DNA of 64,000 bases, taken from positions 11,656,001-11,720,000 of the forward strand of contig OZ004610.1 of assembly GCA_963924565.1 (NCBI GenBank), given 5' to 3'. The stretch comes from Ascidiella aspersa. Lineage: Eukaryota. How positions within the stretch are numbered: the first letter of the stretch is position 1; the number at the start of each line of letters is the position of its first letter. Below, in pieces: positions 39,601-63,756 of the stretch. The notes below the pieces were generated by a model. It searched no databases. It was given only the letters and a program-made list of their open reading frames with translations, and was not told where the DNA came from. The translations under genes were made by a program, and so were the position numbers.

Positions 39601-42600
39601 TTTCCCACAACCCCGATGAACTGCATTAATAGACGCAAGCGCGTCGTCGCGCAAAACGATAAATAATAAGCCGAAAGGCCTGGAGGTGACGCATCGCGGG
39701 GGAAATAGCGCGAAAGATGGGGAGAGGCGCAAAAAAACGATGACATATCGTCACTTCCTCGTGACGCGTCGCCAGCATAAGCAGGCACGCGATTAGCCGC
39801 GGCCGCATCACAATAGTGGCAACGCCGGAAGGCAGCAGCTGGGGACGAGGCCTCTGTCACACGCACGCGCGCGCGCGCGCAAATGCACCACTTATACTGT
39901 TGTCAGAGTTCGAACGCAAATCACCGCCGGCCCGAGTAAGCACCTTATACACGCGAGAGCGCTAAATACGGAAGGATCGATTCGCGGGGTTCAAGTCGCA
40001 GCCGCGCGTAAGGGAACGTCAGTTAATCAACGGCAAGCAAGCGGAGAGCACCGAAACTATAAGCGCAAAAAGGCAGGAAACTAAAGTGATAACTGAATCG
40101 ACAGCAAACAAGACAAGTCAAACGGCGGAAGCTGCACAATGAACCTAAGCACAACGGCATTCGCGCTTCTGTGTTTTTTTGCTTTAGTTAGCGGGGAGCC
40201 GGACACTTGTGCCTGTAGCCAGGCGATTTCGGGCGGCTGCCGGTGCTACAAGGACGGCTGGATGGACTGCGCCGCAGTGGGCCTGACCCGGATACCCGAC
40301 GACCTGCCAGCCTGTTCCAAGATGCTTTCGCTCAGTAATAACAGCATTACGCATATAGGTAAGTCCGCTTTTATGCTTCTAAATAGCTTTGCAAAATTTA
40401 AAGGTTAGAACGCCAAAGTTAAATTATCGATGTTAGGTTGCCCTAAATACATTTAGCGCTTTGAGTAAATTAAAATATCCTGTGACGACTGTACAGCAAC
40501 AAAGTTTAAGGCAGTTTGAAAATCTATTTACGACCAAAAAAAGTTAAAAATTTAACAGTAGAAACAGACGATTAAGGTTAATATGGATAATTTGGTACAA
40601 AAAAAGTGTTCAGAGTTTATTTAATATTGTTCAAAATAAAAAAATAAAATTAATGTGTTATTCATTTGTTTGGGTGCCTCAGCAATATCATACAACAGCA
40701 TTTTACCGCATAAAAGGGTTATTCGAGATAATTCTTGCCCTCCGGCCTGCAGTGACGTTCACAAAATGTTGCTTACAAGGCATGCTTTTTCTACCATTTC
40801 CCAGGCTCTACGGACCTTCGCGGCCTAAACAATGTGCTAGATATTCGACTTCAAAACAACAACATTACCATTATCGACGTTGGGGCCTTTGTCGATTTAA
40901 AAAGTAAGTCTCATATTGAACGCGAATGACCTAGCATTATAAAACTCAATGTTTGTTTAACTTAGTTTTTTTCTTCTAAAGTTGCCTGAAAAGGTAAATT
41001 GTTTATATTCACCCTGCTGTGACTATGTATCATTTTCGCACCATTATATGAACGCAAATCAAAACACTTTACTATTATGTTACTGTGAGCAAAAAAATTA
41101 CATAAACAGAGTGAGACGGAGCTTTTAATATAGGCGTTTATAGATACATTTACTGGTGGACTACAGAAAAAAATGTTGACCACACGTGTATCACCTTGCA
41201 CCTCGTGCATGTAGATTGTAAAGGGGATAACCTATGATTGTAAAGGGGATAACATATGTACATGCATAAACATAAACCTTTCTTTGTAAATACTTAGAAA
41301 CGTACATCTTGAGCGACTGTGACGCATCGAGTCACGTTTATTTATTTTCGACTGGCTGCGGCCAGTGGAACTTCAACAATTCCTTACTGAGAGGTATAAA
41401 ATGCAGTAAATCGTATTGCGTCACCGCTAAACGTGATTCGTTTTTGGCATGACTACCTTTGTTATAGTATGGCGACAGAACTTACGTTTCACTAAAACGT
41501 CATACAAAGAATACACTTATATCATAGGCGATCGGATGCACATATAAGCGGAATATCGCATCGCATGTTTGTTTTGCCAATTGTTGCCAAACATAACGTT
41601 TTAACACATTTATGCTGCATTTTTATGGCAATGTTTGAAATGCAAATGTTGTTTAAACACATCATTTTGTAATTTATTTGCGAAATTCGGGTTTGAAATG
41701 TACTATATGTGTTACGCCAAACTATCCAGAACTCTACTTAACGGCCTGTCGGATGCCCGAGCACTACACGAGGCGTATATTAGTGTTGTAATATAAGACG
41801 AAACAAGCGAACTTACATAAAGAATCATAAAACAATAAAAGGACTTCATATATAAGCGGCCAATGACTAAAATCGGGCGTAAACAATGACGATCTTAAAA
41901 GCTCCTAATCCCAGCCTTGCCCAAACCTGACTATCCTTCTATCAAGTGTTCCCAAAACCACAAGTGTAACGAAAAAGGTGTGATGGCTTCAATAACGAAA
42001 GATAAAAAGGCGTTAACAGCAAACGTGATTAGATAAAGTATATACAGGTGAACGGTGAGGTGGAGCGTGAAGAGGCAAGAAAAGTTAAGTGAGTGAAAAC
42101 GCATAGAAACAATAAGGCAAAAACAACATACAACAAACGTTAACTCATTTTGTGCAACATATGTATACGGTTTTAAGACCTTATTGGAGTAATTGTAGTC
42201 GTTATATGTTTTTGACCTTATAGTGTCTAACGATCACCATACCACATCTTCGATAAATTGAATTGAACCATATTTTTGAATGACAGATGCGACAACGTTA
42301 AATTTGAGCAACAACCGATTGACTACGGTTGACAAGTGCACCTTCCTAGGCTTGGTTTCGCTCACCAATCTCTTCCTAGACGGAAACAGGATAACCCAGA
42401 TCGCGGTTCGGGCTTTTGAAGGCCTGTCCAGCATCCAGTTCCTATCTATTGTCGACAACTCCCTGATGAGCTTTAGTGCAGAGTAAGCATACCGCTATCT
42501 CGTAATAATGTGAGCATTTAAAATTTGCAATGGTTTAAAAACAAACATTTTTTGATTAAATATGATAACTTAAAGAATATACTGTTGCTACCAAGCATTG

Positions 42601-45600
42601 TTTCAATGATCCCTTAACACAGGGGTTCTCAAACTTTTTTTACCGCAGACACCCTAACAATTTTTTTTGCTTAGCGTGTACTAGTGTGGGCATGATTTTT
42701 TTTTTACAGATAACGTCATCAATTGGCATCATAATAAAAATAGAAATTTATGCTTTTTTTTGAAAATTTATCACTTTTAAATAATACACTTATTTTTTTT
42801 TAACGATGGTCCATATTGCTATTGCTGAGATTTTAACTGTAAAAAGTTGCGGCCAGAAAGTTTCGTCTGTTTAATATCGCATGTACAATCGTTACAAGAT
42901 CGCTGTTCTTTTGTTTGTCCTATGAATTGAATTATTCTATTTTTACTATTTGCACAGCACTACTTTAATACACCATTTTTATGTTACAAGGCATTTTGCA
43001 CCAATTCGTGTAACGTTTTTACAGTTAAAAAGTCTATGCACCATTGCCTCATACAGTCAAGTTTGTTTTACAAGGTTTAATTTTGAGAGACCGCAGTTTA
43101 TTAACAGAGCGCAATTTCATACAAATCTGAACAAACGAACATAGCTAGTATAGCTAATTTTTTGGGAAACCGTCGGATTAATTATGTTTCGGCATACTAT
43201 ACGACTTATTTTAAATACCGCCCAAATACGTAGTTATATAGTATAATGCAAAAGACGGCTTAAATTCGCGTTTTCACAAAGGATTTTCGAACGTAGGTGG
43301 TTCCGCAACAAACCGAACCTGCTCTTCTTTCCCGACAAGGGCAACGCGTGGAACTGCACGTGCCAGCTGAGGGCGCAACAGCAACTCGTCAGGAGCTTCG
43401 CGGGTTTACTGGTGAGATCAGCGTTCAGCTTCTTGCGCTTGTACTGAGTCACAGTTGCCCCTTGTGTGCATTTAGGCAAATCTGGGCGCGCGTATTGTGA
43501 GCGCTGGTGTCCAGTCACCTCACGCGAAAAGTCACGACCGAAGGCCATGCCCCGGTCCCAGTTACTCGGGTTGAAATCAAGGGCGTGTTGTGAAAATCCA
43601 ACACTGACCAACCAAGAATAGTAAAAAAATAGGTTGGAAGTAGGGATGTTCAAAGTAGAATCCCAAGGTATTCTAGAATAATAGGTTTCGAATCTAGAAT
43701 AACGAATCAAGAATAGCGAATCCTAGTATATTTTTATTAAATTATTTAACCTCGATTTTGTTTGGGGAAGGGATTAATCTCAATCTACCCTACAGGACCC
43801 ACAATCACAGCAATAAATCGCCCAAACAATTTTCTAACATGTGTACATTATAATAAAAAAACTCTCTCATATGTTTAACATTCTTAACAACTGTCATCTG
43901 AATCCGTTCTGTAAACTGGAATATGTCAACTGTCCAGGTTGTGTCCAAAACTTATATTTTTGCCAATAGTGAGAAAATGCAACACTGCACACAGAAGTCT
44001 TAAGCAATTCGGTCCTGATTTTGAAAGCATTGTTAAGTCTTATTGCTTCTTTTTTGACTAACATGATCTTTTATGCAGTCAAATGATGCACTGCAAAGAA
44101 TACAAAGTTATTATTGACATAACGAATTCTTGACAATTACATTGTGCATAACTGCATAACTTCCCTGAATATTGGCCTAAAGTTGACCTTAAGTAACCCC
44201 ATAGCGCATTTTGTGGACGGCCAGCACGTTTTGAAACGCTATGTTACTTTTGCAACTTAACGCATTTAGGGAAATTGCGAAGTCCACACCAGACATTACA
44301 CGTTGGCGCTCGCCCAATAACGCTTGATTGACACTTAATTATTAGACGAACCTTATCGCGAGACGAGGTAATTGGTCGCCCGAAAAAACGCTGACACTGC
44401 ACTACGAGGTTACATTTAAAGCAAGCACTATAAATTGGTCGCCGCAGCGACAGGCCAACTTACCACACGCGTTTGTGCAATTAGGCGCAACAATCGGCGG
44501 TAAAACATTAAATTATATCGGTTCCAATTACCCGAAATAAATGGCAGAATTGGATTCGAATCCCATCTGGTTTCGAATCCAAGGATTCGATATTCTACTT
44601 TGAGCATCCCTAGTTGGAAGGTTAGGTTAGGGTTAAAAAACGTTTTTTATTTTGGTACGCTATTCCATAAAAAAGTTGTCGGTACAACATTTACGTTTCG
44701 CTCAATTTAAAAAAAGCTTTAAACTTGAAAACGTATAAAAAAACAAATCGTGTTTGGAAGAATACTATTAATTTTTTTAAGTGTATCTGAATCAACGCCC
44801 TCAAATATAATGGTGTAGGGTTTCCATGACAATAACAAACTTTTCTATTGATTATTGTACATCTTTGACAATTGGTGAAGACCACGTCAATTTGACCACA
44901 TCATTCTGTTATCTTGTCAAACTGCTTGTAATTAAATTACGACTGAAAATAAGTCGGCATACGCATGAACGTGATGTATCTAATAAACACGCATTTTTAC
45001 CCGAAATTTTAGCAATGATGATGCATTATTTAAAAATAGCCTATAAACGCTATTGAATTTCGAATAATTAATATGGCGTCCTAATCTACCAGTTTATCAT
45101 CAGGTTTATAATAAATATAGAATTCGTAAAACGTGGATTTTAATAAAACCTTCGGTTGGTTTTTAAATGGTGCATAGTTTGTCGTACAAATTAACAGCCA
45201 GTGCGAAAGTTAGCAGCCATTCATAGTCACACCATAAATAGAACAAAAAATATAGGGAAGGGATAAAACCATAAATATTATTTACTGCTTGACGTGTACA
45301 GGTTTACAGCAAACAAACAATCAAAAAAACAAAACTGCGCTAGTATTTGTGTGCAATAAAGACTAAAAGTATGCTAGTAATTGTGTGCAATAAACACTAT
45401 AACATTTTAATCATACATCCCACTTCGCGTCCATTTCTTGTGATAAAATTAAAAAAAATATCCTATTCCAGGAACACTGTCCAGGGGCTCTCGGCTCAGG
45501 AGGAAGCTTCTGCATAATGTGCAGCGGAAGCGGCCTATTGGCTGGCAAGGCACTAGCAACCGCCGCAGACGCCGACTTTGCGCATTGCGCCCAAGCCACA

Positions 45601-48600
45601 ACTACAACACCAGCTGAAGCAACGACGACCGGGCTTCAGCAAGCGACAACAACCGAGGCCAAGTTGTCCACATGGGACTTCACCGGCGTAACTTTGCCGT
45701 TCGAATTGGAAGGCGCCGCGGACGAGGAGTCTTGCGACACTTATGTCGCGAGAAAGTTGAGCATCGCGACAAAGACCCCCGTAACCGGTAACACGACTGT
45801 AAGCACCAATAAAGCGACTGAAGCGACCACCAAGAATATCGTGGTCACCCAAACAACCCAACACACCATAACGACCGGATCAACGTTGTCGGCCGCGTCG
45901 AGCGCCAGCGACGCTACAGTAACGGTTTCCCACTATCAGGGCCTCGCGCCGTGGGCCATTGCGCTGGTGGTGTTGGCCGTAGTTTGCATGATCGTTTTGA
46001 TCGCGGTCGTCATCGTGCTGCTGGTGCGCACCAGCGGCACCAAACGGCCGGCCAGAGGCACGGACACGACCACCAACGGCACCAGAGAGGAAAACGAAGT
46101 GTTTAACGCGAAACCGGACGTGCGACTGTAAGAACCACTGCGTCAATGCGAACATGTTCAAGAAGCGAAGCAAGCGAAAGTCGAAGGCGAGAATGACAGA
46201 ACGAAAGGGTGGATTCGTCACAAGACGATTCGGAAGAGAGATATCCTGTTGGCTCAACTTTTTTTGTATGGATTAGTATATATTAACAGTTTTATCTTTT
46301 ACAATGTACTTGATATTTTCCAATGTCTTCAGCATTCTTCCTGCATTATACTGTTGTATAACTCTGACTTTAATATTAATTTTAAGTTTGATACCAAACG
46401 ATACGCCATCATTTTTATTTTGTGTTTGCTGCCGTACATTGCCATTGCTATTTTTTTAAATAAATACGTTCCAAAATTGATGAACTCTTTTCAGAAGTAT
46501 GCAAAGAAAAAGGTTTAAAGTGCCAGTAAAACCAAACACTTGTAGAGAAGCGGTTTAAATATATAAATAAGTTAATTAATTATTCTAAAGCGTTTTGTTG
46601 GATACAAAACTAAGATAAATTTTAATGCAATTTTAAACTAATCAACAATTTCATGAAGCTTAGTAAACTTTTAATGATCTATTTATCTTAACTTTCATGA
46701 ATTTTATATTAATTAAGTCAAATAAGTGGATTACAAAATTTTAATTCTGGCCCACGATCTCCAGTGTTAACCATTTTTAGGACAGCAATCGCCAATCTCA
46801 ACTTAATTGCCCCTTTATGAAAAAGATTGACCCCCGGTTTATACACTGACAATACATTGTATTTTTATTATTAAAGGTGCATCTTGTGTGTAACCATGGT
46901 CATTTAATCAGTTTTGCAGCTAAACATGTACTCTTGAAATTGAAACTGACGATTCTATACAATGGGACCATAAAAGAAAAAAAATCAAATAACCTTTTCT
47001 TTTTCCAACTCCTCCTTATGTTTCTTCTCCAGTTCAATAATGCATTCCTCCCATTCCTCTTCTTTCTTTATAAATTCTAGCTTCTGCTTCTGTTTAAGAT
47101 TTAGCAAAAGCGGAGCGGTTAACAGAAAGTACTAGACATTTTTTATTTTTACTTTTTTACAAAATAAATTTTCCTTTTTTCATATTATTTTAAAACGTGA
47201 GCATTCAACTTTCTGTTGAACATAATTACCACCTCCCCACTCCTCAAGAAAATCTGGTTTACAAATTTTTATAAATAGTAGTTTACAAACTTCCATAATA
47301 GCGGACAGAGAATTGTTGGAGATTGGAAATTCACCTCACTAAGTTCTTCATGCTTCTCAGTTTCTGCTTTGAAATTGTTTCTGATCTCTAGGAGTTCATT
47401 GTTTTGGGCTTGCAGGTTTTTGATGGTTTCGTTTTTCTGATCGATGACTTTGGATATTTCTTCAGTCCTTGACTAATACAAAGTTTTTCGAGAAAATTTT
47501 TATTCTGATATCATATATATACAACGTTAAACCTAAAGAAATTTTAAAACAAGTGGCACCGTTGACAATTTGTCAATAGTACAACTTGTTTTCAGTTTAA
47601 CTTTAGATGGCTATTAACCACTGAAGAAAAATTACGGATATTAACCACTCAAGACAAAAATACGACTATCAATTACTAAAGAAATACGTTTATATGCCTG
47701 ACAAGAAAAATAAGTTATTTAACAAAGAGCGTGAGGTTTCACCTGATAGTTCTTCTTTGAAGTATTTTCCTCTTCCTGCAAACTTACTATCTTTTCCTTT
47801 TCTTCCACAAGCTCCTCTAGGACCTTAGCTAACTCATTTTCCAAATTTACAACCATCTAAAATACAAAAAGCAGATTAATGGCTGAGAAAATACATAGTA
47901 CTATCACAACTGGTAGTCTGAATGAAGTTGTACTTAAGATACAATATTTTTTCCGAATAATAAACTAGTATCTTAAATAACAGTTTTCCCCATTGGAATA
48001 CACGGCACTAAGTTCAAACTAACAGGGACAGGGTCTAGCCGATTTCCTTTGTCTACCAACCTCTTTTAGCCTGACAGTGTCTTCCATACAAGCCTCCTTC
48101 TCTTGTGTGAGTTGTGAAATTGTAGTTCCCAAGCTTGTCTCATGTTCCTTCCAGCCATCAACAACTTTTGCCAGAGTCTGTCAAGAAAAAATATTTTGTT
48201 GCATTTGCTCAAAACTAAAATACCAAAGATTAGTAAGTTTGGTACAAAATGCTCGCTAATTACAATACAGACACTTATAATTAACTAATTCCATACATAC
48301 TACAAAGACTAAATGATAGTAATGTTAGGTCGGATTATAAACGCCTAAGACAAGTTACTTTAAAAGTCTAAACCAAATTAGTTAAACTAATTTCAAGTTA
48401 CAATTGGTACCGTATTTAAATGTTAGGTGGATAACTACCTTGTCAAGTTGTTCAATCATGAGGTCTTTTTTACGTTCAGTTGAACTAGCAACTGCCAACT
48501 CCTGTTGAGTTTCTAGCATCTTTTTCTGCAACTTTTGAATTTGTTTTTCACAGTGCTTTCGTCGATACCTGCAGATAATCATATAAAATTATTAGAAAAA

Positions 48601-51600
48601 CTCTCAGTTTAGGTACTATCAAAGCTTGATTAATTGAAACAAATGTTTTAAACCTTTCTTTTTCGAGTGTATCTCTAAGAATTCCATTTTCAGCAGCTAT
48701 ACTGGAATCAATAGACGATCTGGCCGAGTCAGATCCGGTCGTTTTGCCGGATTTTAAGATGGAAAACAAGTCGGTTGTCAGACTCTCGGTCAGTTGCTTT
48801 GGAGGACTTACAACAGGGACCAGCTCTGACGGTTGCACACTGCACCAAAAATAATCAAGCCATTTCATACAACGAAAATGCTAGTTATGCTGATCGGAAA
48901 TGTGTACAGTGTTAACACAAAGGCAGCTTTTTAATTTATTTATTGTATGACATTGGTTTCACCAAAACAAGTTACAGCAAAAAAGTACGAAAAGGTTCAA
49001 ACAATCCGTTGTCACATTTTTAGTGGTGTGTTACACACACTAACTAATAATGTGACAGTTCAGCTTATAATTTTTATTTTTTTTTTGAACTGAGCAAAAA
49101 ATATATATACCGGAGCAAAGTAGCAGTATCAGCACTCCTGAAAGTATCTTCTTTACTTTCACTAGTTATATTGAAGCCAGATGTGTCTTGACCAGATGAA
49201 TTTAAAACAAGAGCTAAAAGTACAAATAAAGAGTGTTTTAAAACAGAAAACATTGTATTTTTTGTTAAAAAAATATTTTTAGAATACAAGCATTCACTCA
49301 CGCTCAATTTTTTTAGGATCAAGCATTGTTTGAAGGTGGTCTCTAACCGACATCATGTCCATAACAGCTCGTGATAGCTGGGGTTCTGGTTCCTTTTGTT
49401 GAATAGAAACCTGTGCAGTCTTTCCTTTACCTTTGGTTGGTTTAGGCTTGCCAGTAGTTGCGCCATGTGTTTTTTTGACATCCATCTTTGATGTAGGTTT
49501 TCCTAAATTTTGTCCTAATCCTGCTTGTTGTTTTTCTTGCACAGAAAACTGTGAATAAACAGAGTGTTATTAAAGTTAATAAGTCTTTAAAAAATATTGT
49601 GAAGTACCTGGACAGCCTTCCCACTCAGTTTTCCTTGTTTTGACAATCGTGACTTATCACCTGGGGCTCGAGTTTGCTTTTGAGGTAAAGCCCTAGTTGA
49701 CAGTTGGGTTGTTTGTTTGGAGGTGGCCCTTGGCTTCACTTTGGTTGAATTTTCACTTCCGGTATTATTTTCCCTGGACTGTGGATTTGACTGAGTTGCA
49801 GTTAAGTTGTGGGAAGAATTCAACTTGTCCTCACTGTTTAAACCACTAGTCGCAATATCTGTTTTCAGCAGAGAATAGAGACTTGCCAGTTGATCTGATG
49901 CACTCTTCTCTTTGTCCTGGCCCCTTTCAAGTTGCTTCATGAAATCAAGCAGCCTCTTGGTTTGGTCATCATTCAAAACAGACTCATCAACTGGCTTTTC
50001 AAGTTTAACATGCCTCTCCTTAACAGGCGACAAACCTCTCTTAATTGGTGATAATACAGATGGAAATTCACTTGAATGACATACATTTGGTCCATTGATG
50101 GAGTTATTTGCTTCATCTACAGATTCTGCATCTGTGGTCAATGGTTTATTTTCGTGTGGAAGTGATAGAAAGTTCCGCTTTTGCAGAACATTACCTGTAG
50201 TTGAGACAGAATTAGCACCAAGTTTCTCTTTTGTGGGTGCCATAAAATGCATTGTCTTTCCCATAATTTCCCCAGGAGATGATTGCCAGCTTGATTTAAT
50301 TTCAACTTCTTTTCGAAGGCTGGACGCCAAAGATTCTTGGAGAAAATTTTGGACTTTTTGTACAGATGCACTTATTGAAGCCTGATCAATGCTTTTGTAG
50401 GGGCTTTTTGTGGTTGACTCTTTGTATGGTGAAATGCTATCATCAAGCCCACTGAAAATAATATTAAAGGAATTGCACATTTATTACATAGCAATAAAAT
50501 GGATTATTATGTTCTGAGGTTTAGATCCTTTAAATTATTGAAACATTGTACAACACTAAGTCCTAAAAACATGTAATGCGACTTTTATAAGGCATCTCAA
50601 TTTGGAGGCATTCAAATACTGTACTCAGTAGAGCACTGATATATTTTTATAAAAAAACATATATTTACCCAGGTAACAAAGTAGTTATAAATCTTTATTT
50701 ACTTATGGATGTATTTGTACCTGGGTGGGCCAGGCAATAACCAAGGGCACTTCCTCAGCCTATTATACCAGGCTAACAATGTAATATAAGCAGAGGTAAA
50801 ACAACATTCCAAATGCTAACCCCCACCACCAACTACGTCTATGTATCATTAATATGGGGGAAATGCATAACCAAGGAGACCAGGCAAATATCCACTGTTG
50901 TACATAGTATGGCAGAATGCTGGCAACTTGGCGACTATGTCAGCCGAAGAATTAGCCAGGAAATCGAAGAAATTGATGCAAAAAAAAATAAAGTAAAAAA
51001 AAAATTTGAAAATTAAAAAAAAATTTACGCCATTTTGCAAAAAGTTACAGTAGTGTGAAGCACGTTGTTTGGTGAGAAAAAGCCAGTGTAAGGCATATAG
51101 ATTGTTTATTATTTTGAAAAGTACACACATTTGATTATACAATTGTTACATGTTGGCAGTTTTACTTTGAATTGGCAAGCACTTCTATATTGAGTTGATT
51201 TCCTGTATATTGAGTTGAATTCTCATTCCTGTTAAATGTACAGGTATAACAGTCGCATCGCAATATTAAGGATGTATTAGGCTATCCTTCTCCACCTAAG
51301 GCCTAAAGTATATTTTTGGTTGTTTAATTACACAAATGCAAAAAATTTCCGCACTTCGCGCAAGCTTTAGCCTGGTTTTGCTCGGTTTAAGTGTCTTTGT
51401 TTTCAACAAATCTATCCCAAAGGTAGTATGCATACTATGTGGCATGTTGCATTGTGACTAAGACAATTTATTAAATTTTAATTTTATTATAAATATCATT
51501 ATTTCGAGCAATATAAATTGAAAATTATCTTAATTTATCCAAAGAATATTTTTTTCGTGCTTTTCAATCTTGTTTTGAGCTGGACGTTTTCACACAAGTT

Positions 51601-52517: not shown

Positions 52518-53716
52518 GTAGGGGGTAGCCTTATTATGTGTTGTCATTTGATGACGTGACCCGAATTAAGCGCTGCCATTAGGCGTAAAATTTGAAGCAA
52601 CAAGTTTCCAACAAGAAAATTTTTCATCGTTGGATCAGGAAATTAGTTTGAACCTCGCAACTCAACAACTAAGCCGCAACGATCATCCGAAAAAAACTAA
52701 CAAGAAGAAGAAAAGACAGCAAATGAGCAACGAACTTTCCTCATCATTTGTATCGAAGAACCTTTTGTAACGAGCGCCCCTAACCAAATGTTCACAAGAG
52801 AACAAGCGCCGCCGATCAACAATTGGAGGAAACCGCACTGCAACGATGCAATCGCAATTCGTCGCTGGATGTCTTTGAAACTTTTGCTTAAACTACCGTG
52901 CTGAATAAACAAGGTGAATGTCAATTTATCTTACAAAATATCTATAAAAAATCTAACTTTAACGCCGAAGATCTGTTCATTTATGCTGTGAAACACGATT
53001 AATAACCGTAAAAATATAAATGTTAGAAATGCGCATATAAAGTTTTGATAATAGCGCTAAAACTTGTAAATATTGATTTTATTTTGTTGTGCACGAAACA
53101 TTTTTGTGTAAAATATCCAAATTCTTTTAAACATTTGTACGTTTTGGGGTTTTAGTTAGGGAAGTCTGAATCAAAATACGCACAACGCGTCTAGTTAGGT
53201 AGATTACAAAAACACGAGACGTAACATTCCTCGTAAAAGCATAATAATTTATCCGCGCGCGACACATATGCTTCAATTCGTGCAAGTCCAAACACGAATT
53301 TAGGGATAAGCCTATTACCTGCCTTTGTTAAAAGCAATAGCGAAAAAGCAGCAATTTAGAAGGTGTTTTTATGTACTGCGTTTTGAAAACTAACGAAATG
53401 TGTTATTTAACAACAACAAAAAAATAACTGCCTTTCTTTTGTTTTGTTTTCAAAGGTTTCCATTGTATTGCACGGTTGTGGACGACTGAACTTGACAAAC
53501 AACAGATCGAGATGTAGGCTACAGCAGTTCCTGTTGAACTTCGAAACACCAACGGAAGATTTTTCAACTTGCTGTTACATGTGCCAAATTTAACTCGTGA
53601 TTTTGTTTTGTCATGTTCATGTTGTTCACAATTTTAAGCACAAATCTTTTATGGCTGCGATAAATAATATGTAGGGGGTAGCCTTATTATTTGTTGTCAT
53701 TTAATGACGTGGCCCA
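52518..53716. repeat. Two copies of a ~48-bp motif upstream of centrobin
   Basis: TGTAGGGGGTAGCCTTATTAT(G/T)TGTTGTCATTT(G/A)ATGACGTG(A/G)CCC occurs at ~52518 and ~53670. Confidence 0.85.
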
Positions 53717-54326
53717 ATCGCAGACCTGTCATCATTAACATTGCTCGTAAAGTACCGGTAACACGAAGATGTTATTTGCATTCCGTTAACACGCCTCTGC
53801 TAAACGATGGCCAGGCGATGTGTACAAAAACTTAACGAAAGGATCTTAACTTATTTAACTGAACTGGAACTGACCTGGACAACCCACCCAACTAAAATAA
53901 TGTAACGGACAAAAATTATTAAGCTGGACCGTTAGTATTGGATCCTGGACTCTTTCACTACCAGTTTAGTCCTGCACTACCTCCATAGTCTAAAGAAGGA
54001 TCGAGTTATTTCATTATTATTTAACACTCGATTTCACGTTCGTAACAGCAATTCGAGTCTTAACACTTTGTCTTCGAGCCAAATACCGAGACTTTTTTAA
54101 TTATTTTAATACGTTTACAAGGCGCACTCGGGTAGGTTAATTAGATATTAAAATTATTAGACTATAATGTTATATTTGCCTGATTTTTGAGTGGCTGAAC
54201 AAAATGAAACAATCCGTGTGCTCTTCGTCACTATTGCATATTACGTTATTTTCGGGTGGGTTTAATTAAGAGGTGGTTGTAGACCGCTATCCGGATAGCG
54301 GTTAAATGGATACCCGAGGGTTGTTG

Positions 54327-54735
54327 CAGGGTTGCGGAGTCGAAGTCGGACTCTGAACTCGAGGAGTCGGTTTGTTTTGCTGGAGTCGTCCTCGGGACTC
54401 GAGTAAGACCACGTAAAACTACAGTAAGACCACGAAAAACTGTCCCGAGTCCGACATGCGCATGCGCAGTACCAAATTGTAAAACTGGTGTGGCCGCCAA
54501 CTGAAGGGAATGGGTATGGGAATAGCATATGGTGTAATATTTTCCAATCATGTACTGTATTGTCAGTGGATGAATTATACGATACCCCTAAAAGTGGATT
54601 GCTGAATATACACGATATTTTAGTTGCGTAAATTGGCGGAATAGCCTACAAGCTGTAGAGTCAGGGCAGGCCCCGGGACTCGACAAAATCGCACATTCGG
54701 GTTAATTTTTTTGCTAACCGATTCCGCAGCCCTGT
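54327..54735. mobile_element. MITE with GAGTC subterminal repeats
   Basis: TIRs CAGGGTTGCGGAGTCG / CGATTCCGCAGCCCTG; multiple GAGTC/GACTC units inside; TSD not convincing. Confidence 0.7.
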
Positions 54736-57700
54736 TTTTTTGCTATCTGATATCCGCATATAGCGTAATGTTACCGGTTGACCGGGTAGCATAGGTAACG
54801 TTTTGGTTTGTTTCTACACCTTTTTAGTTCTGTTTCAGCCCCTTTTCGCCAAAGTTCCTATAGGTGAATGTTTGCCCCAAAAGCCGCCCGGGGTGGCGGC
54901 AACTATAATGGTTTATATAAAGTAACTTAAGTTGAGAATTAACGCTTATTGTCAAATAAAGGAGACCTATAGGTCTACTTATACTTCCCAGGAAAATGAT
55001 GTTACTTATGACTGAACTATTGCTAAGTAGCTTATATCTGATTCAAACATTTATATCTTTTCTTGAACGATGCACTTCATGGCACTACACGTTCGGTAAC
55101 AATAAATTTCAGAGCATTTGATGTGATTTTTGCGTTTACATCGTCCATTTTGAAACAGTAAAGGCGCTGGTCGTCCCTTGACTGTTAAGCCGCTGATTGT
55201 GTTTGAAACGGGTTGACTTAATGGTCTCCCACAATAATTAAGATTATCAACTTATATTCTTATAAGGATAAGGTCTGTGTGAAAGCTACATTGCATCGAC
55301 TGGCGCGGTACAGATTATTATCGCTATTTATATCTGCGTGACTGTAATAAATCAAATCCAATTCTTTGTCTTGTAAGTTTTTCGTACAATGCAAATAAGT
55401 ATGTAACAAAAAGCAATGTTGTGTACTGCCAAACTGCATCCAACGTAAAAATAATCACGTTTGAAAATTTCCTAATGCATATTAAGTTGTAACATGTCAG
55501 TTTAAATTTGATAGCCTCATCAAAATTTGTTTGCCTCGTGGACAGCCCATGACTATAATAAATAAATGTGGCAAATCACATGCAAACTAAAAGTGATGTT
55601 ACGGATTGGTCAGAGGGCAAAATGATGTGAAAATATATTTTCAAATGGCATAACAGTTTTACATAGCCTAAGCCGAAACGTTGCACTACGTAGACCTAAC
55701 GCTACACATTCAGCAGGTATAAGCTATCAATTTCAAAACATGTGGTGGGTGTTTTTTTTATTTCGGTTTGATCAGAGAACATGTAACTTATATTGTAAAA
55801 TAGAAAATGCGATAATAAAAACGAAAAAAATATTTTGCAATTAACGTACTAAATTTGTTAAAAGACAGCAACATGCCCTCGTCTCCAGCTATATCCAGCC
55901 TTGTGAACACCTTAGTTAGTTTAAACTTTATTTTGCATCAGCCTGACCAAAATTATGTTGAAGGTAATTCAAATGGTTTGTAGAGAAGTAGGCTACCATT
56001 TTCCATCACGACATCCAACTAATTTATAGTGTAATTGGATAAACGGTATTAGGAGTGCATTTCTAGGACGGTACTGTAACTAAGCTAGCCGATTTTATTT
56101 AGAGCATAGCACAGCATAAAACGCATCATGGTAATCATGATAGATAAAAATCATCGTCTGAATGTAAAATAAATTTCTTGTTGTAAAAATGTAACATAAT
56201 TTTTTTTCTTAGAACGATGAAAATTTTCTTACTGGAACTCTAAAAATTTTTAGAGACTACGTCACAAAGTCACGTATAACTGGACGTCAAAACCGAATAA
56301 CCTTAGGTTGTCATTCGAAGTAAAACACGTTCAAGGAGATGGCGGGACGGCCTGGTATAAAGCGACAATGCCTATTGGAAAAAAATAATAGTTTTTACAG
56401 GTGATGGGTATCTGCAAAAATTTCATGTAACGCTGTTCCGACAGCAATTTTTTTTTACAGAAACGGCATTCTGAGACATTGCGGCTTGAGCCTAACTGCT
56501 AACAACTTTTGTATGCTCATCGTGTCGTGTTCTTGGCGATATGGCTTTCATTTGCCTTGCTGCTATTACATTGCACTTGTGGGAATTCGTGCATTTCAAT
56601 AATTGTTTTTAAATTAAAACCCGCTTAAATTATATGCGACACCCCGTCATACGAAAGCGAATCACTCGCAATGACGTCTACATTTCGATATTCGTTGAAC
56701 CAGGCTGTGATATCGCGTGACGCGTGATTAGCCAAAACGACTTACAATTGTATTCGAATTGGGTTTCGCGAATCACACTATAAATACGACTTAACACACG
56801 CACAGGCCACCAATTGTATAAAAACCAAGGTTTAAAATGGATATAGCTCCAGCGGTATGGTGTGACAACGTAATGTTATCACTTCAGGTCCTAAAAACAG
56901 AAATATTTTTATTTGCGGTCATATACGATAAGCGTTTTAGTGTAAAACACTTTGGTGTGCAATTGATGACGCGTCGACAAAAGCATTTTTTTTTCAGGGA
57001 AACTTTATCAGGCAATAACGAATTTCAATCACGAACGCTTGCTAAAATACCGTTACTTTTTCTACGTGTTTGATATTACTACTATTGGTAAGCGTTGCAC
57101 AACGGAAACATGGAGCGTTTCGAATGTACCAAGCAAATGGTTGTTTTACGACCATTCAATTGCGCTGAATGTAATGATTATTACAGAGGTCTAAAAATAC
57201 AACGAAATGAGTTCCCTTTACAAAAAAACAAGCTGGGTAATTTATAATAACAATTCTTATAAAGTTGTTGGCAGTCTGTGTAATTTCTGACAAACCTATG
57301 AACGAAAGGGATCGATAAACGTCAACAGTTTTATTTATTTTAACAGATAATTATCCACGAAATTAGGAGCGAACAAATCAAAACGTTTCAAAACTAAAGC
57401 GTGTTCTCAATGCGATGTGGATTGCAATTACATAATCAAAACTTCGCACTATCTCGTCATGCAATTGGCAAGAGCATCCATTTTCCACGGCCCGACCGAA
57501 TATAACGGAAAGGTCAATTGAGTCTTTGGTTTGTCGTGACCAGACTTGGAGTTTCACGAAGGGCGTCGACGGCAATTAAACGGCCAACGAGCAGCAAAAA
57601 GCCGCCTGTTCCCGTTTTTCCAGCGTTAACACATCCAGCGAGCAAAAGCCCGCCTGAGACAGCTTTCGAAGAAACCAACTAAGATGACGGCATGACGTTT

Positions 57701-58540
57701 GGTCGGCGTTCAAAAGTCGCTAATGCGTTCGCGCCACGACTTTCTTTGCGGACGAACCCGTGCATGGGTCAGCCCACTTGTCCCTTCCGCATTTCCCTCT
57801 GGCCGAACGCAGAACTGTGGTCTTCCCACGTTGGCGGTCGTGTCGATCACGCGGCATCAGAAGACGCAGGGGACCTAAACAAAGTCACAATTAATACCGC
57901 ATTTGTCGGCGCAGACCGCTGACGTTTTTAATTACGTAACACACGGGACGATGAAAAATGTCCATGCAAGGGTCAGAGCTGGTGTTGGGATGGCGTCATA
58001 CGAAACGTAGCGCACTATTTCATTTCCTGTCTAGCGCATGACCTCGCGCCGCATATACGCGACGGGGTTAAATCATACACCCGCCCGCGATTAACCGCGA
58101 ATCTGTAGTTTCAATCACCTGTATTGATATACAGAAGGCACGACATAAAAGAAAGCTTTTCGAATAGCCTTGTACAGAAAAAAAAAGTATTTTTAAGAAA
58201 TAAATTTGTCACATGTGGTACCGCCTTCCCATACAAATTTGAGCTCTTTAAAACAACAAAACAATTGCATTACATACACTTTTGAAACAATAACAAAACA
58301 TCACAATCAAATTAGTTTGATCCAACGAATATCGGATTACTGGCTACAAAGGTTAGGTCTTCAGAATTTCATAAAATGATTTGACGTATTGATTGATTGC
58401 CATCCAAGTCGTGACCAGAAATGACATTTGGGATTGTGCTACATTCTGTCCAATAAGTTGAGACGAATTTTCAGAAGGGCCATTATGCTGTTTTACATCT
58501 TGGTTGAAGCATCAAAGTTGGTTAAGTAAAATATCAAAGA

Positions 58541-60993
58541 ATGGTAGAAAAGTATAGAGTGTTTCTTTTGATTTTTGCCTTGTCAATTTTAAGTCCAGGG
58601 TTTTCAATATGGAGCTGTCCATCAGGATGTTCATGCTTTCGAGTATGTATTTTTATATATAATTGAGTCATAAAATATAATGGAATCATATCAATAATAA
58701 CATTAAATACTTATATAACTGTCTTACTTATGATGAACAACAAATACTCATATATATATATAAGCATAAACAAATTAAGCTTTTAGGTGTTTTTAAAGTT
58801 TAACGCACTATGAAACATAGAATTGATAAGCGTGGTCGTACTAAATAATCTTTATTAAAAAAACCTCTTTCTGTAAAAGGCTTTTCACAAATTATAGGTA
58901 ATATATGCAGTAACAAAGATACATGCATTTGTTTCAGGGTTATCTAGTTTGTTTGTCATCACAACAAAACCCCAGGAGTCAGATGCCCGAAACAATTCCA
59001 CCGAATGTCACCCACATATATCTGGACCGAAACCAAATCTCTGTGATAGAACATAGAGACTTCATGACACAGGAAAACTCAAGCCAGGATTTGCGATATC
59101 TTAGCATAATTAGCAACACAATAAAGGAGATCCAGCAAGATGCATTTCAACCGCTTACAAATTTAGAGACCTTACATTTGCAGGGAAACAAGCTGGCCAG
59201 AATTGACAGAAGCACCTTCAATGGTCTTACCAAACTTAAAGAATTAAATTTGCGGGATAATCTACTCCTAACAATTGCATGTGGAGCATTTTCAGGTATG
59301 CATGACCTGAAAACCTTAAATCTAGCCCTTAACAAACTTACTGGAATTAAAAACTGCACATTCAACGGATTAAGCAAGCTGAGTGAACTGGATCTTTCCA
59401 ACAACATTGTGACACATGTGGACTCAAATGCGTTCAGAAACATGAGGGTGTTAAACTACCTAAAACTTTATAACAATCATATATCCAAAATAAAATTTAC
59501 CTGGTTTACAGGCAAAAACTTAATCAGGGTACAGTTGATGGGTAACCCTTGGTTGTGCAGTTGTTCAACGATACAAGAGTACACAAACGCAAAAACATTC
59601 TTAGCCCGAAGCAGTTGTTCGAATATTGACAACATGTGTATTATATGTTATAAACCGCATGAGCTGCAGTCGCAACCAATCAATTCGGTAAACCTGACTA
59701 ACTGGAAGCAGTGCAAGTCAATCTGGCGACAGTCTTCTACTGTCATGTGCAACGCTAAAAAAACTAACTGCAAACTTACTGGCAGTGAAAATGAGACCAT
59801 TTGGAGAGACAATTTGCCCAGGACAGTTCAACAGCTCAACATCACCAAGAATGATTTACCAAGAATTACCAAAACCATTTTTAACAACCTTCAAGATTTG
59901 GTTCACTTGCAGCTTGTCTCCAACAATATTGTCACTATTGAAGACTATTCGTTTACAAATAACAACAAGCTTGAGGTGAAACAAACAATTAAGTAATCTA
60001 TCAAATTATCAATATATTTTGGTATTCAAAAAGTTGATTTCATATATTTTTTAATAAAGGTGATGGACTTACAGGACAACAACATAACAAATATTCAAAG
60101 AAATATGTTTCATGGTCTCACTAGTTTGGTCCAATTAAGCTTGCAGGTGAGTTAAGGGTACCTAAAATGTGAATTAATATTGAAATGAACAATAATATTA
60201 ATTAATATTTCAGGAGAACGCAATTAGTGGAACCTTAAAGAATCGAACATTTGAACTTCTACCATCATTATCATATTTAAACCTTGGTTCAAATCGAATA
60301 CAGGAAATAAAAGACTGTGCATTTTGCAATGTCACATTATTGACAGAGTTATTACTTCAAAATAATATAATTACCTTCATACATCCAAATGCCTTTTTGG
60401 TAAGTTTAAGTTTTAAAACACCTGCATTGCAGATAAGTAGCCTATATATATATAAGAAACACAATTATAGATTTCTAAGTTTAAGACATACTATCGTTAA
60501 ATTATATACTGTTAAAAAAATTGTATAATATATTTAAAAAAATATTGAGAAAATAAAATATACTTTGTAGGGCGTTAGAAAGCTTCAAACATTGAACATT
60601 GCCAACAATCAGATCACTTTCCTGGGACTTAAGCGGTTTGTAGACATGACTTTTTTAAACATCTTTAATCTCAACAACAATCCTTGGAACTGCACATGTC
60701 AGATGAAAAAGCAGCTGCAGGCGTTACTGCAAGGAATCAAGAAATCAGCTTCATGCAAAGACAATAACTTATGCATTAGATGCTTTACTCCAAAGAGTTT
60801 GCGCAATACCAATTTATTGGATCCTGAGCAAATGCTGAATTGCAATGTCACAAAGACAAGGCCAGCAATGTCAAAAAGCCCAGTGCTCTCCACAACTGCA
60901 TCAAATGCCATGACATCACCACAAAATAAAACCTTGAACAATATAATGATATTTTTACTGACTTCTATTTTTTTCACGATCTTTATTGGCTGA
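58541..60993 (+). CDS. Double-module LRR protein, probably GPI-anchored, ~611 aa
   Basis: Exons 58541-58642, 58938-59975, 60060-60146, 60214-60399 and 60571-60993 are all phase 0. Signal peptide plus 'WSCPSGCSCFR'; LRRs; LRRCT 'GNPWLCSC...CSNIDNMCIICYKP'; second N-cap and LRRs; LRRCT 'NNPWNCTC...CKDNNLCIRCFTP'; short S/T stalk; ends on a hydrophobic tail 'IMIFLLTSIFFTIFIG*'. Confidence 0.9.
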
Positions 60994-61733
60994 ATACTTA
61001 AACATGTACTAAGTTGTTGCAAGTAAATACAAACTAGTTTGTGGTAAAATTCCTAACAATACTCCACAAGGTTAGTTGATGTGTACATAGAGTTGGGAGA
61101 TGGGGGATTTTTCATCACAAAATGTACATCTCCAGGAAGACTGATTTTTTTTATTTTTTTTTATTTAAATTGTGTTAAAATTATGTTGGATGCTAGATCA
61201 TTCAAAAACGTTTGATGCTCAAATATTATGTAAATCTATGATATCACATTAATTAAGTCATTGATAAAGTGATTATGACCCCAAAATAAAGTGTGCACAA
61301 CAACTAATAAATTTAGACACTGTCATACTTCCTGCCATTGTAAACTTTTTTCTTATTTCCAAGAATTTTGCAATAATTAAGTGGTTAAAATAGTAAGCGA
61401 TTGTAATTTAATACTATTTACAACAATTGAATGTATTAATATGTGATACTATACATATCTCAATTATTTTTTACATTTTTAAGCTGTATAAAATGGAGGT
61501 TTCCAAGTGCCATGTTATCAGTTAAAATGGTCAGTGATAAAATTGTTGTGGCCCAGATGTAACAAAGCTTAGTTAAAGGTATAGATCAATGCAAGCTTGT
61601 TTTTAATAGACTGTTTTGGTTATATGAAATAAAGTTTTTTATTAAAAAATGTGTTGTTTTATTTTGCATATAGATAGAAGATATTTAATCTCTAAAAAAT
61701 TGTTAAAAAAACACAGCATACAACTATTATAAG

Positions 61734-63756
61734 ATGGTAGAACTGTGGTGGATGTTTCTTATTTTACCAATATTTGAAACAAGAACTGATTCTTTTGTGT
61801 TAGAAGCAAGAAAACCAGCTGATACCCAAGTGTTTAATGCTGATCACAACCCATCAATAAATATCAGAATAAAGCGCAGAGCAGGACAACTTTCCTGCAG
61901 TTTTGGACATTGCTTTGTACCTCCAAATCAAAATATTAATTTTATTCCTAAACAACAAGTACCACTTGATGTGGTCACCCTACAGCTTTCCAGAAACCAA
62001 TTTGAGTACATAAACCGATCAGATTTTGCCGGTAGAGTTAATCTAACAAAACTGCAACTATCTAGAAATCTTATTAAAACAATTGAAAACTTTTCATTTG
62101 TCAGCCAAGGAAATCTTATGGTAAGAAACATTTTGCTAAAAATACAACCAGTATATATGTTGTATATTTGCAAAAAAACAATACTGCTAGTTTTAAATTA
62201 ATTTCTTTTTTGCAGATTTTACAACTACAACACAACCGAATATCAAAAATCAGCCATGAGACTTTTCTTGGTTTATCAAAATTAAAGACATTGAACCTTG
62301 CTGTAAGTGTTAAAATAATGTTCCCACTACATATATTAAACTTATTTAAATTGCATAATCTCATCGTTCTTTTAATAACCATTCATTATTTTCAGAGTAA
62401 CAAGATCGCATTCATAGACAGAAAAATGTTAACTCCAATGAAAAGTTTGCAAACTCTTCATCTGGAAAACAATAAATTAGAACAGCTAAAAAACTGTACA
62501 TTCTGCGACTTGGTGCATTTAAAATCCCTGTTTTTAAATGCTAACAAGTTAAAAATTATTGACAAAGATACATTTCATGTAAGTACGACTTTGAATATAC
62601 ATAACAATGTTTGTATTATGAAATTTATTAAATTAATATAAATTTGACACAAATACTTAAAAAAACATTTTTTTCAGATAAATTAGACCAATATGTTAAT
62701 AATGGAGGTTTTAACAAAACAAAGAGTATACTATAAAAAATATTTTAGGCATATTTGAGATAAACATTTTTTCAGCAAATGCTATTTTTTTGTTAAAAAT
62801 TACAGGGGCTCTATGGGCTACAGCTGCTTTTCATTCAATACAACCAAATCTCACACTTTGAATTCTCTGGACTAAATTTTGCAAGTTCATCACTCAAATT
62901 AAAAACACACAATAACCCTTGGGACTGCACTTGTCAACTAAAGCAAGAGTTTGACAGTTTTATTTGGAACACATCTCTGCCTGTATCGTGCTTGACTCCA
63001 ACGGCGTGTGTCATTTGTTCGAGTCCAGACATATTTGCCAGTACCCCACTTCACAAAATCTCAAAAGTGGAACTACCCCACTGCACCCAACAGATATCAA
63101 CTGCTGCTGAAACAACCACAATGTTGACCATACAACCTTTACCAAATTCCAATATGTCAACTTTTACATTAATTTCAAGTACATCAAGTGCAGGTGCAAC
63201 AACTTCTGGTCCAATCAACTTATCTACAACGAGTTCTAATTCAACAGATTCAAGTTTACCAAATTCTGGTACAACAACTTCTGTTCCCACAAACTTTATT
63301 ATCACAACAAATTCTAGTTCAACAGAGTCTAGTTTACCAAATTCTGGTGCAACAACTTCTGTGCAAACAAGTTCAGTTATGACTATATTTTCTTCAATAA
63401 AAACAATGAAAACAGAAAGTTCCACTGATAAAAATGCCAGTCCCACTACTACAACTTCAAGCAATGCAAGTACAATGCAATCAACCAATGCAACTTCTCT
63501 TCTGGGTCAAAGCACAAACACAACTATTGTTTTTACCACAACTCCTACTTTCGGTGACAAAACTTCTTCAAAAGATGCAAGAGGAGAACCAGAAAAAGGG
63601 AACAAAGATAGTTCAGAGTTTACTGTGCCAAATAAAGAGCATTCAGTTCAAATTAAAATTGTGATAACAGTACTCATTAGTTCTTTGATTGTTATTGTAA
63701 TTTGTATCATGGCAATGGTTTATGTCCACCGAAGGCACACACATAATCATTTCTAA
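61734..63756 (+). CDS. Single-pass LRR-mucin-stalk receptor with putative furin propeptide, ~535 aa
   Basis: Exons 61734-62120, 62216-62302, 62396-62578 and 62806-63756 are all phase 0. Signal peptide; 'RIKRR'; LRRs; LRRCT 'NNPWDCTCQL...CLTPTACVICSSP...C'; ~190-aa S/T-rich stalk; TM 'IVITVLISSLIVIVICIMAMVYV'; 9-aa tail. Confidence 0.9.
63190..63375 (+). repeat. Coding 75-78-bp tandem repeat in mucin stalk
   Basis: GGT(G/A)CAACAACTTCT recurs at 63193, 63268 and 63346; 'SSLPNSG(T/A)TTSV' occurs twice. Confidence 0.85.

What the first reader, a model, noticed from the sequence alone, without database searches (positions are those of the whole stretch)
40139..63756. Local family of three VLR/GPIb-alpha-like LRR surface receptors with a shared atypical LRRCT cap (extra Cys pair around a variable loop)
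Seen: all four LRRCT modules read N(P/A)WxCxC...C-x(4-10)-C(I/V)xC: CPGALGSGGSFCIMC, CSNIDNMCIIC, CKDNNLCIRC and CLTPTACVIC. This adds a Cys pair to the canonical 4-Cys LRRCT and encloses a loop that varies in length and sequence. All three proteins are SP-LRRNT-LRRs-LRRCT-S/T stalk-anchor with no TIR, Ig or kinase domain. Established: lamprey/hagfish VLRs and GPIb-alpha have this layout and use a variable LRRCT insert for ligand contact. Inference: a diverged germline-encoded recognition-receptor family (immune, allorecognition or adhesion). The sequence does not show VLR orthology or somatic rearrangement.
Basis: partly seen in the sequence, partly recalled or inferred. Interest (0 to 1): 0.75.

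Follow-up and report, generated by a model that had tools for sequence, protein, structure and literature searches.

The report
Sea-squirt leucine-rich surface receptor family
Three real genes of an apparently sea-squirt-specific family encode cell-surface binding proteins with an extra pair of cysteines in their end cap; they look like lamprey antigen receptors in outline, but that outline and that cap also occur in ordinary adhesion proteins, and an immune role is unproven.

Summary
The four six-cysteine LRRCT caps are real and lie in three intact spliced genes (A 429 aa, B 611 aa, C 535 aa). Corrections: B has two LRR solenoids and a GPI-like tail, C has a reduced LRRNT, and an unrelated gene separates A from B/C.

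The only close relatives found are a Clavelina lepadiformis two-solenoid membrane protein and an unnamed fragment, both with the same cap. All seven units group together even with the cap insert removed (SH-aLRT 84). This points to one ascidian LRR-only family.

The cap is uncommon but not new: solved human NGL1-3 carry C-C-x2-C. The best fold matches are Nogo receptors, ahead of VLR and GPIb-alpha. VLR-defining features fail: germline genes are complete and the window holds no donor cassettes. Kinship to GPIb-alpha, NGL or SLITRK is unresolved.

Most likely these are non-signalling adhesion or recognition glycoproteins. One pro-recognition hint: differences between two Clavelina records cluster in the caps (6 of 114 vs 4 of 413 residues; post hoc).

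The parts
40139..46131 (+). Gene A, 429 aa: signal peptide, LRRNT, about 5 LRRs, six-Cys LRRCT, 119-aa S/T stalk, TM, 33-aa tail. Exons 40139-40358, 40805-40903, 42287-42482, 43297-43411, 45472-46131
   Evidence: an X3 contig piece starts at the exon 5 border
43343..45588 (+). LRRCT of A (43343-43411 joined to 45472-45588); extra Cys pair 45478-45513 encloses 10 aa
   Evidence: junction inferred from splice signals, frame and alignment to the family
45952..46029 (+). Predicted transmembrane helix of A
   Evidence: hydropathy
58541..60993 (+). Gene B, 611 aa: signal peptide, solenoid 1 (7 LRRs + cap), solenoid 2 (7 LRRs + cap), 32-aa S/T segment, terminal hydrophobic tail. Exons 58541-58642, 58938-59975, 60060-60146, 60214-60399, 60571-60993
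   Evidence: X3 contig pieces end or start at 58642, 58938 and 60570 and run to 61623; solenoids match Clavelina solenoids 1 and 2 at 158 and 167 bits
59544..59714 (+). LRRCT B1; extra Cys pair 59616-59639 encloses 6 aa
   Evidence: AF2 model: helix, low-confidence loop, then the strand with canonical Cys3
60679..60843 (+). LRRCT B2; extra Cys pair 60754-60774 encloses 5 aa
   Evidence: last exon 44% identical to unnamed P0006
60940..60990 (+). Terminal hydrophobic tail of B, GPI-signal-like (inference)
   Evidence: P0006 ends likewise
61628..61674 (+). Two poly(A)-type hexamers (61628, 61641) and a pyrimidine-AG site (to about 61674) between B and C; possible operon boundary (inference)
   Evidence: an X3 contig ends at 61623
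61734..63756 (+). Gene C, 535 aa: signal-like start, segment ending RIKRR, 2-Cys N-cap, 7 LRRs, six-Cys LRRCT, 188-aa S/T stalk, TM, 9-aa tail. Exons 61734-62120, 62216-62302, 62396-62578, 62806-63756
   Evidence: 162 bits to Clavelina solenoid 2; three introns at the same places and phase as in B solenoid 2; splicing not shown by reads
62914..63084 (+). LRRCT of C; extra Cys pair 62989-63009 encloses 5 aa
63658..63726 (+). Predicted transmembrane helix of C
   Evidence: hydropathy

Best explanation
A, B and C are members of an old ascidian family of LRR-only cell-surface glycoproteins that act as non-signalling adhesion or recognition receptors or co-receptors. SHOWN: the gene structures, the architecture, the kinship to the Clavelina two-solenoid protein, and an ordinary extracellular LRR horseshoe for B solenoid 1. 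INFERRED from known LRR receptors: an O-glycosylated S/T stalk (A, C) or a GPI anchor (B) presents the solenoid; the concave beta-sheet binds a protein or glycan ligand; with tails of 33, 0 and 9 aa, any signal passes through a partner. INFERRED: the two extra Cys pair with each other and staple a short (5-10 aa) flexible loop behind the cap helix, where it can trim ligand access but is not a long VLR-type hairpin. INFERRED history: B keeps the two-solenoid layout shared with Clavelina; C is a tandem duplicate of the second solenoid with stalk and TM; A split earlier.
For: Intact models. The Clavelina protein is the best hit of all four window units among the fetched proteins (151-160 bits for B1, B2 and C; 96 for A, next 87). 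A profile of the caps finds only it, P0006 and one weak SLITRK2 among 2,817 candidates. All 7 units form one group with the cap insert kept (73 rows; fork drawn at SH-aLRT 80) or dropped (40 rows; 84). A second shared trait, a Cys in a late LRR (KCTF, NCTF, DCAF, NCTF), is in 4 of 4 window units and both Clavelina units; a Cys in that 16-residue window was in 13 of 175 fetched caps, 3 of them Clavelina rows. AF2 with a 38-row alignment: pLDDT 89.4, pTM 0.89, loop residues 228-230 under 50. Top folds: Nogo receptors Z 27.8-28.8 (best: rmsd 2.2, 246 aligned), SALM2 27.5, hagfish VLRA 27.3, GPIb-alpha 26.9, NGL3 25.3. Rapidly diverging, lineage-specific LRR_Only genes are the norm (PMC2235866 passages).
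Against: No ligand, tissue or function data. The disulfide and the direction of the loop were not measured (the model's coordinates are not returned). Tree support for the family is modest and unstarred, and A's membership is the weakest (about 30% identity, other intron phases). Sense-strand reads for C exons 2-4 were not seen in the 6% of X4 read. Differences between two Clavelina records are enriched in the caps, which fits diversifying selection as well as relaxed constraint.
Confidence: 0.6

Rival explanations
1. Germline innate immune pattern-recognition receptors, working like amphioxus Bf66946 or a fixed VLR: the concave face and the stapled cap loop bind microbial surfaces, and the loop diversifies under selection.
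For: Same outline as VLRB (LRRNT-LRRs-LRRCT-stalk-GPI; PMC13590357 passages). An amphioxus LRR-only protein binds peptidoglycan (PMC4731796). ESM features of B's last exon rank VLRB clusters first (0.97), though Slit scores 0.96. Clavelina differences: 6 of 114 cap residues against 4 of 413 N-cap plus LRR residues (Fisher p 0.009), and 5 of 54 in the inserts against 5 of 473 elsewhere (p 0.002) (post hoc, two records, no synonymous data).
Against: Only three genes in the window and one Clavelina cluster were found, with no sign of a large expansion (a word-limited search, and no genome was available). The loop is 5-7 aa in 6 of 7 caps. Concave-face LRRs are nearly invariant between the Clavelina records. 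No expression data by tissue.
Confidence: 0.25
2. Allorecognition or histocompatibility receptors that read self markers through polymorphic ectodomains.
For: Surface display without a signalling domain; divergence between paralogues; one listed Leu-to-Pro difference 3 residues before A's first extra Cys in X1 (position 43410).
Against: Listed X1 pieces over B/C differ from the window at 18 of about 5,450 letters (0.33%), against 43 of about 4,290 (1.0%) in the four listed pieces outside (longest pieces only, introns included, few haplotypes). The Clavelina records are 97-99% identical in the solenoids. Allorecognition loci are expected to be hyper-polymorphic (own knowledge).
Confidence: 0.05
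3. Ig-less descendants of an NGL/LRRC4 or similar six-Cys-cap ancestor, acting in neural or developmental adhesion; the cap is then simply inherited.
For: The same extra pair in NGL1-3, amphioxus LRRC4C-like proteins (loop 2) and sturgeon P0075 (loop 8). A tree that holds all of these with the ascidian units is not rejected (p-AU 0.50). Amphioxus LRRC4C-like proteins are among the next-best hits of B2 and C.
Against: The free trees keep them apart. GPIb-like (p-AU 0.70) and SLITRK (0.69) sisters are equally not rejected, so the test has little power. No Ig domain in any family member.
Confidence: 0.1

Closest known systems
Clavelina lepadiformis LOC143448660 (XP_076804597.1; uncharacterised)
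   Same: Two tandem solenoids, both with the six-Cys cap (loops 5 and 7), the late-LRR Cys, S/T stalk; 34-38% identical to B1, B2 and C.
   Different: One protein with two solenoids and a TM; here B has two solenoids with a GPI-like tail, and C has one solenoid with a TM.
Nogo receptors RTN4R / RTN4RL2
   Same: Best fold match (Z 28.8, rmsd 2.2, 246 aligned). LRR-only, stalk and GPI anchor, no signalling domain (own knowledge).
   Different: About 26% identity; their extra Cys lie after the cap, not around this loop (own knowledge); orthology not tested.
NGL1-3 / LRRC4, LRRC4B, LRRC4C
   Same: Six-Cys LRRCT with the extra pair just before canonical Cys3; they bind ligand on the concave face (PMC3230378 passages).
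   Different: Loop of 0 (vertebrate) or 2 (amphioxus) residues; an Ig domain follows; separate group in both trees.
Agnathan VLRA/B/C and amphioxus Bf66946
   Same: Overall layout; variable stretch at the same chain position in the LRRCT (VLRA/B); fold Z 27.3 for 2o6q.
   Different: VLRs are assembled from an incomplete germline gene and cassettes; Bf66946 and, by that paper's account, VLRs have two LRRCT disulfides; VLRB has a Thr/Pro stalk and an 8-Cys tail.
GPIb-alpha and fish/shark GPIb-alpha-like proteins
   Same: SP-LRRNT-LRR-LRRCT-mucin stalk-TM; long Cys2-Cys3 spacing; tandem solenoids in fish and shark forms; fold Z 26.9.
   Different: Their insert has no Cys (5 of 5 GPIb-like rows); separate group in both free trees, although a sister position is not rejected.

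Membership tests
Extracellular LRR_Only receptors (Dolan et al. class) | Signal peptide, LRRNT, typical 24-aa LRRs, LRRCT1, no other recognised domain, TM or GPI anchor | tested here: met
   Cys2-Cys3 spacing of 27-33 fits the LRR-CT1 pattern (PMC2235866 section 27); C's N-cap has only 2 Cys
Variable lymphocyte receptors | Incomplete germline gene completed by somatic assembly | tested here: not met
   All three genes are complete ORFs with ordinary spliceosomal introns
Variable lymphocyte receptors | Flanking LRR donor cassettes | tested here: not met
   An HMM of 25 repeats over 2,788 six-frame segments: the 10 hits under E 1e-4 are all exon frames of A, B and C, the next is 0.059. Window only; no genome
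Variable lymphocyte receptors | Thr/Pro-rich stalk and (VLRB) 8-Cys C-terminus | tested here: not met
   Stalks are 34-45% Ser/Thr with 3-10 Pro; at most one Cys after the cap outside the TM
Variable lymphocyte receptors | LRRCT insert protruding over the concave face and contacting ligand | tested here: inconclusive
   Same chain position, but a longer helix (17 aa) and a short, low-confidence loop; coordinates not available
Variable lymphocyte receptors | Orthology by phylogeny; clonal expression on lymphocytes | not tested
   No VLR sequence was among the fetched proteins, so none is in the trees
GPIb-alpha | Four-Cys LRRCT with a long Cys-free insert | tested here: not met
   Family caps have six Cys; 5 of 5 GPIb-like rows have none in the insert
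GPIb-alpha | Grouping with GP1BA in a tree | tested here: inconclusive
   Apart in the free trees; a joint clade is not rejected and scored 7.1 lnL higher, p-AU 0.70
GPIb-alpha | Binding of VWF-A1 or thrombin; complex with GPIb-beta and GPIX | not testable with these tools
   Needs experiment
NGL / LRRC4 | Extra Cys pair before canonical Cys3 | tested here: met
NGL / LRRC4 | Ig domain after the LRRCT | tested here: not met
   S/T stalk or second solenoid follows; no Ig hit in the last exons or in the Clavelina protein
NGL / LRRC4 | Grouping with NGL in a tree | tested here: inconclusive
   Apart in the free trees; joint clade not rejected, p-AU 0.50
Toll-like receptors | Cytoplasmic TIR domain | tested here: not met
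   Tails of 33, 0 and 9 aa before the stop

The most novel reading that the evidence does not exclude
B and C form a small germline diversity cassette in the sister group of vertebrates. Their three homologous phase-0 introns would let B's first solenoid be spliced onto C's later exons. That gives in-frame 786-787-aa two-solenoid TM receptors (Clavelina's is 781 aa) with hybrid binding faces, besides GPI-anchored B and short C. The disulfide-stapled cap loop would be the selected, ligand-contacting variable element, an independent or ancestral parallel to the VLR and GPIb-alpha insert. In-frame joining was computed and follows from the shared phase; no such joint was seen in reads (low depth).
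Probability: 0.1. Interest if true: 0.75.

Novelty: new member of a known kind. Interest (0 to 1): 0.3.

Why it matters
As it stands, it adds an uncharacterised, apparently ascidian-restricted family to the large class of LRR-only surface proteins. It also shows that the six-Cys LRRCT known from NGLs can hold loops of 0 to 10 residues. It would matter more if the loop proved to be a selected ligand contact, or if B and C were cross-spliced: tunicates are the sister group of vertebrates, so that would bear on where the variable LRRCT insert of VLRs and GPIb-alpha came from. Both are directly testable.

Tried and rejected
1. No whole genome is held, so the family could not be counted genome-wide.
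2. Homologue search with B residues 130-275: 0 of 40 candidates passed. Search with Clavelina residues 180-600: 359 hits; the best 120 listed were generic LRR proteins (chaoptin, Toll, podocan) with no further named tunicate.
3. Single-sequence AF2 model: pLDDT 33.7, discarded.
4. The drop in X2 depth over 56.6-63.2 kb looked like gene absence. Rejected, because X2 holds 0.81 of the words of that stretch and the tool filters records.
5. No RNA holder was listed; this is not used as evidence.
6. The end of A's cap resembles LRRC26 (third hit of the cap profile in PDB, E 7.8e-5), but A's exon 5 start alone found no LRR chain (1 hit, E 0.7). Not pursued.
7. P0225 and P0056 share a CAFC motif but have four-Cys caps and no stalk; P0056 is a nematode-cluster protein. 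Not members. P0056 and P0078 sat next to the family but not.
8. My first cap regex flagged 7 of 131, two falsely (P0060) and missing the 0-residue loop; it was replaced.
9. AU tests rejected none of three sister hypotheses. Both trees are 'quick' trees; the careful search did not finish.
10. A PDB search meant to display whole GPIb-alpha and VLR caps gave alignments ending before Cys3, so their Cys count rests on fetched GPIb-like proteins and on PMC4731796.
11. Second ESM Atlas search: best 0.91 unnamed, the rest 0.89 or less; lead only.
12. Earlier findings of this scan: nothing.
13. Complex prediction was not used; no binding claim is made.
Full report
WHAT IS THERE. The window is animal DNA; no whole genome is held. 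Reading the sequence gave three plus-strand gene models, each with GT-AG introns and no internal stop. A (40139-46131, 5 exons, 429 aa) is signal peptide, LRRNT, about 5 LRRs (3 by strict regex, 5 in the alignment), LRRCT, a 119-aa stalk with 35% Ser/Thr, TM and a 33-aa tail. B (58541-60993, 5 exons, 611 aa) has two solenoids of 7 LRRs, each with its own cap, a 32-aa S/T segment and a hydrophobic tail at the very end. C (61734-63756, 4 exons, 535 aa) has a 2-Cys N-cap behind RIKRR, 7 LRRs, a cap, a 188-aa stalk with 45% Ser/Thr, TM and a 9-aa tail. All four caps have six Cys, with loops of 10, 6, 5 and 5 residues. Pfam on 7 exon-sized pieces gave LRR families as the only hits above curated cut-offs. 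An HMM of 25 repeats found no LRR outside these genes among 2,788 six-frame segments.

ARE THEY EXPRESSED. Four coded runs were laid on 43250-63249. X3 contigs behave like transcript contigs (inference): listed pieces begin or end at 45471, 58642, 58938 and 60570, the predicted borders, and the lengths left over fit the upstream exons. B's transcript piece reaches 61623, next to two poly(A)-type hexamers. In the 6% of RNA run X4 that was read, B has low sense-strand depth (0.45-2.7) and A almost none. The bins over C exons 2-4 had only opposite-strand reads (0.4-0.45). The one listed X3 piece over C runs 8 bases into intron 1. No splice joint of these genes was among the 15 joints shown of 299. 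So A and B are supported as transcripts; C's splicing is not shown.

RELATIVES. phmmer of B's last LRR and cap against 1.84 billion representatives gave 100 hits. Two carry the family cap: P0006 (unnamed, 44% identity, ending in a hydrophobic tail) and P0016, named Clavelina lepadiformis LOC143448660. P0016 is a 781-aa protein with two solenoids, both six-Cys capped, then stalk and TM. A profile of six cap segments returned only these two and a weak SLITRK2 among 2,817 candidates. B1 pairs with Clavelina solenoid 1 (158 bits); B2 and C pair with solenoid 2 (167 and 162); A's best hit is also solenoid 2 (98 bits, 30%). B2 and C share three phase-0 intron positions with 87-nt and 186/183-nt exons, so they are tandem duplicates. 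All seven units formed one group in a 73-row tree (fork at SH-aLRT 80) and in a 40-row tree without the cap insert (84). The second tree left out 33 of the rows I had not labelled; both are quick trees, unstarred at this fork, and contain no VLR. That the window is ascidian is an inference from this kinship alone.

IS THE CAP SPECIAL. Of 217 cap starts in 250 fetched proteins, 16 have C-x(0-12)-C-x2-C. These are 3 window caps (A's is split by an intron), P0006, 6 Clavelina rows, 3 amphioxus LRRC4C-like rows (loop 2), 2 bird LRRC4 rows (loop 0) and sturgeon P0075 (loop 8). P0075 is unnamed and flagged 'UNVERIFIED_CONTAM' by its source; I recall its N-terminus as IGSF10/MXRA5-type, untested. The solved chains 3zyi, 3zyo and 3zyj (NGL2, NGL3, NGL1) show the same extra pair. 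The passages I saw of the NGL structure paper do not discuss it (PMC3230378; supplements not read). Cys2-to-Cys3 spacing in the family is 27-33, against a median of 23.5 (range 15-39) in 144 other non-redundant caps, inside the published LRR-CT1 pattern (PMC2235866 section 27). The cap is therefore a minority chordate variant, not a new one. Whether it arose once or several times is open: joint clades with NGL plus P0075 (p-AU 0.50), GPIb-like proteins (0.70; the constrained tree scored 7.1 lnL higher) and SLITRK (0.69; 6.5 higher) were all not rejected.

STRUCTURE. AF2 on B solenoid 1 with a 38-row alignment gave pLDDT 89.4 and pTM 0.89: a regular solenoid, cap helix 209-225, a loop with pLDDT under 50 at 228-230 between the extra Cys (227 and 234), and a strand at 236-239 holding canonical Cys3. 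Foldseek and VIA rank Nogo receptors first (Z 28.8, rmsd 2.2, 246 aligned), then SALM2 27.5, hagfish VLRA 27.3, GPIb-alpha 26.9 and NGL3 25.3. The fold does not single out VLR or GPIb-alpha. The loop is at the chain position of the VLRA/B insert described in PMC4731796 (parts 1-2 of 5 read) and PMC13590357 (passages). But it is short, and its direction and the disulfide could not be measured.

VARIATION. This is post hoc, rests on two records, and has no synonymous control. Against allorecognition: listed X1 pieces over B/C differ at 18 of about 5,450 letters, against 43 of about 4,290 outside. Of 40 differences shown (of 484), two fall in A's coding sequence: one Leu-to-Pro just before the loop and one silent change inside it.

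HOW IT MOST LIKELY WORKS (0.6). These are non-signalling surface glycoproteins: a stalk or a GPI anchor presents the horseshoe, the concave sheet binds a protein or glycan partner, and the extra disulfide fixes a short flexible loop at the C-terminal rim. The architecture and fold are shown; anchor type, disulfide, ligand and partner are inferred. Rivals: innate pattern recognition (0.25), Ig-less NGL-like adhesion (0.1), allorecognition (0.05). B and C may be an operon, as B's 3' end abuts an AG site 60 bases before C's ATG. Ciona operons are juxtaposed in this way, but most lack AATAAA (PMC1488885 passages), which B has.

MEMBERSHIP AND NOVELTY. They meet the LRR_Only definition, a class in which TM and GPI forms, a tandem-solenoid form (Lrrc17) and fast lineage-specific divergence are all recorded (PMC2235866 passages; supplements not read). 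They fail VLR membership (complete genes, no cassettes in the window, no Cys tail), GPIb-alpha membership (six-Cys cap) and NGL membership (no Ig). This lowers 'is a', not 'works like'. I found no description of the family in searches (0, 3, 8, 0 and 0 papers; listings only, none about it by title or abstract start); the library lacks most subscription journals. The boldest reading not excluded is combinatorial B-to-C splicing with a selected cap loop (0.1; interest 0.75): the joins are in frame and give 786-787 aa, but no read shows them.

VERDICT. Observation partly confirmed, interpretation partly supported, new member of a known kind, interest 0.3.

Noticed in passing
window about 46500-52100, minus strand: Multi-exon coiled-coil gene between A and B, transcribed on the minus strand (X4; sequence). 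Its middle exons look like centrobin to me (label recalled, not tested; Pfam gave nothing for two pieces).
   Followed up: partly
window 56300-59500: Reads indicate a minus-strand transcript (X4 first mates on +; X3 pieces 56315-57358 and 57441-57875) with no ORF of 100 aa or more, apparently overlapping B's 5' end; perhaps a 5' UTR or antisense RNA from a shared CpG-rich promoter near 57.5-58.1 kb.
   Followed up: no
window 59280-59357, 60316-60327, 62495-62506, 42337-42339: Extra Cys inside the LRRs: a pair in adjacent repeats of B1 (also in Clavelina solenoid 1), CxxC in B2, C and Clavelina solenoid 2, and a single Cys in A. Possible further disulfides; A's Cys has no obvious partner.
   Followed up: partly
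window 61866-61880: RIKRR before C's N-cap, a furin-type site (own knowledge); the Clavelina inter-solenoid linker shares the preceding INIR but not the basic pair.
   Followed up: no
window 43641-44612, about 51000-51750 and 53000-54700: High-copy interspersed repeats (contig depth up to about 600,000 against about 110 for unique DNA), one filling A's last intron.
   Followed up: no
window 874-1704 and 32405-34743: A Galactosyl_T gene and a CHGN (chondroitin N-acetylgalactosaminyltransferase) gene.
   Followed up: no
P0005, P0007, P0011: Milkfish gp1ba and shark or ray GPIb-alpha-like records consist of 4-8 near-identical whole LRR solenoids in tandem; real tandem arrays or assembly artefacts.
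   Followed up: no
P0025, P0080 (amphioxus LRRC4-like): These keep only the extra Cys three residues before Cys3 and have another Cys about 12 residues after it, suggesting an alternative disulfide partner in the cap.
   Followed up: no
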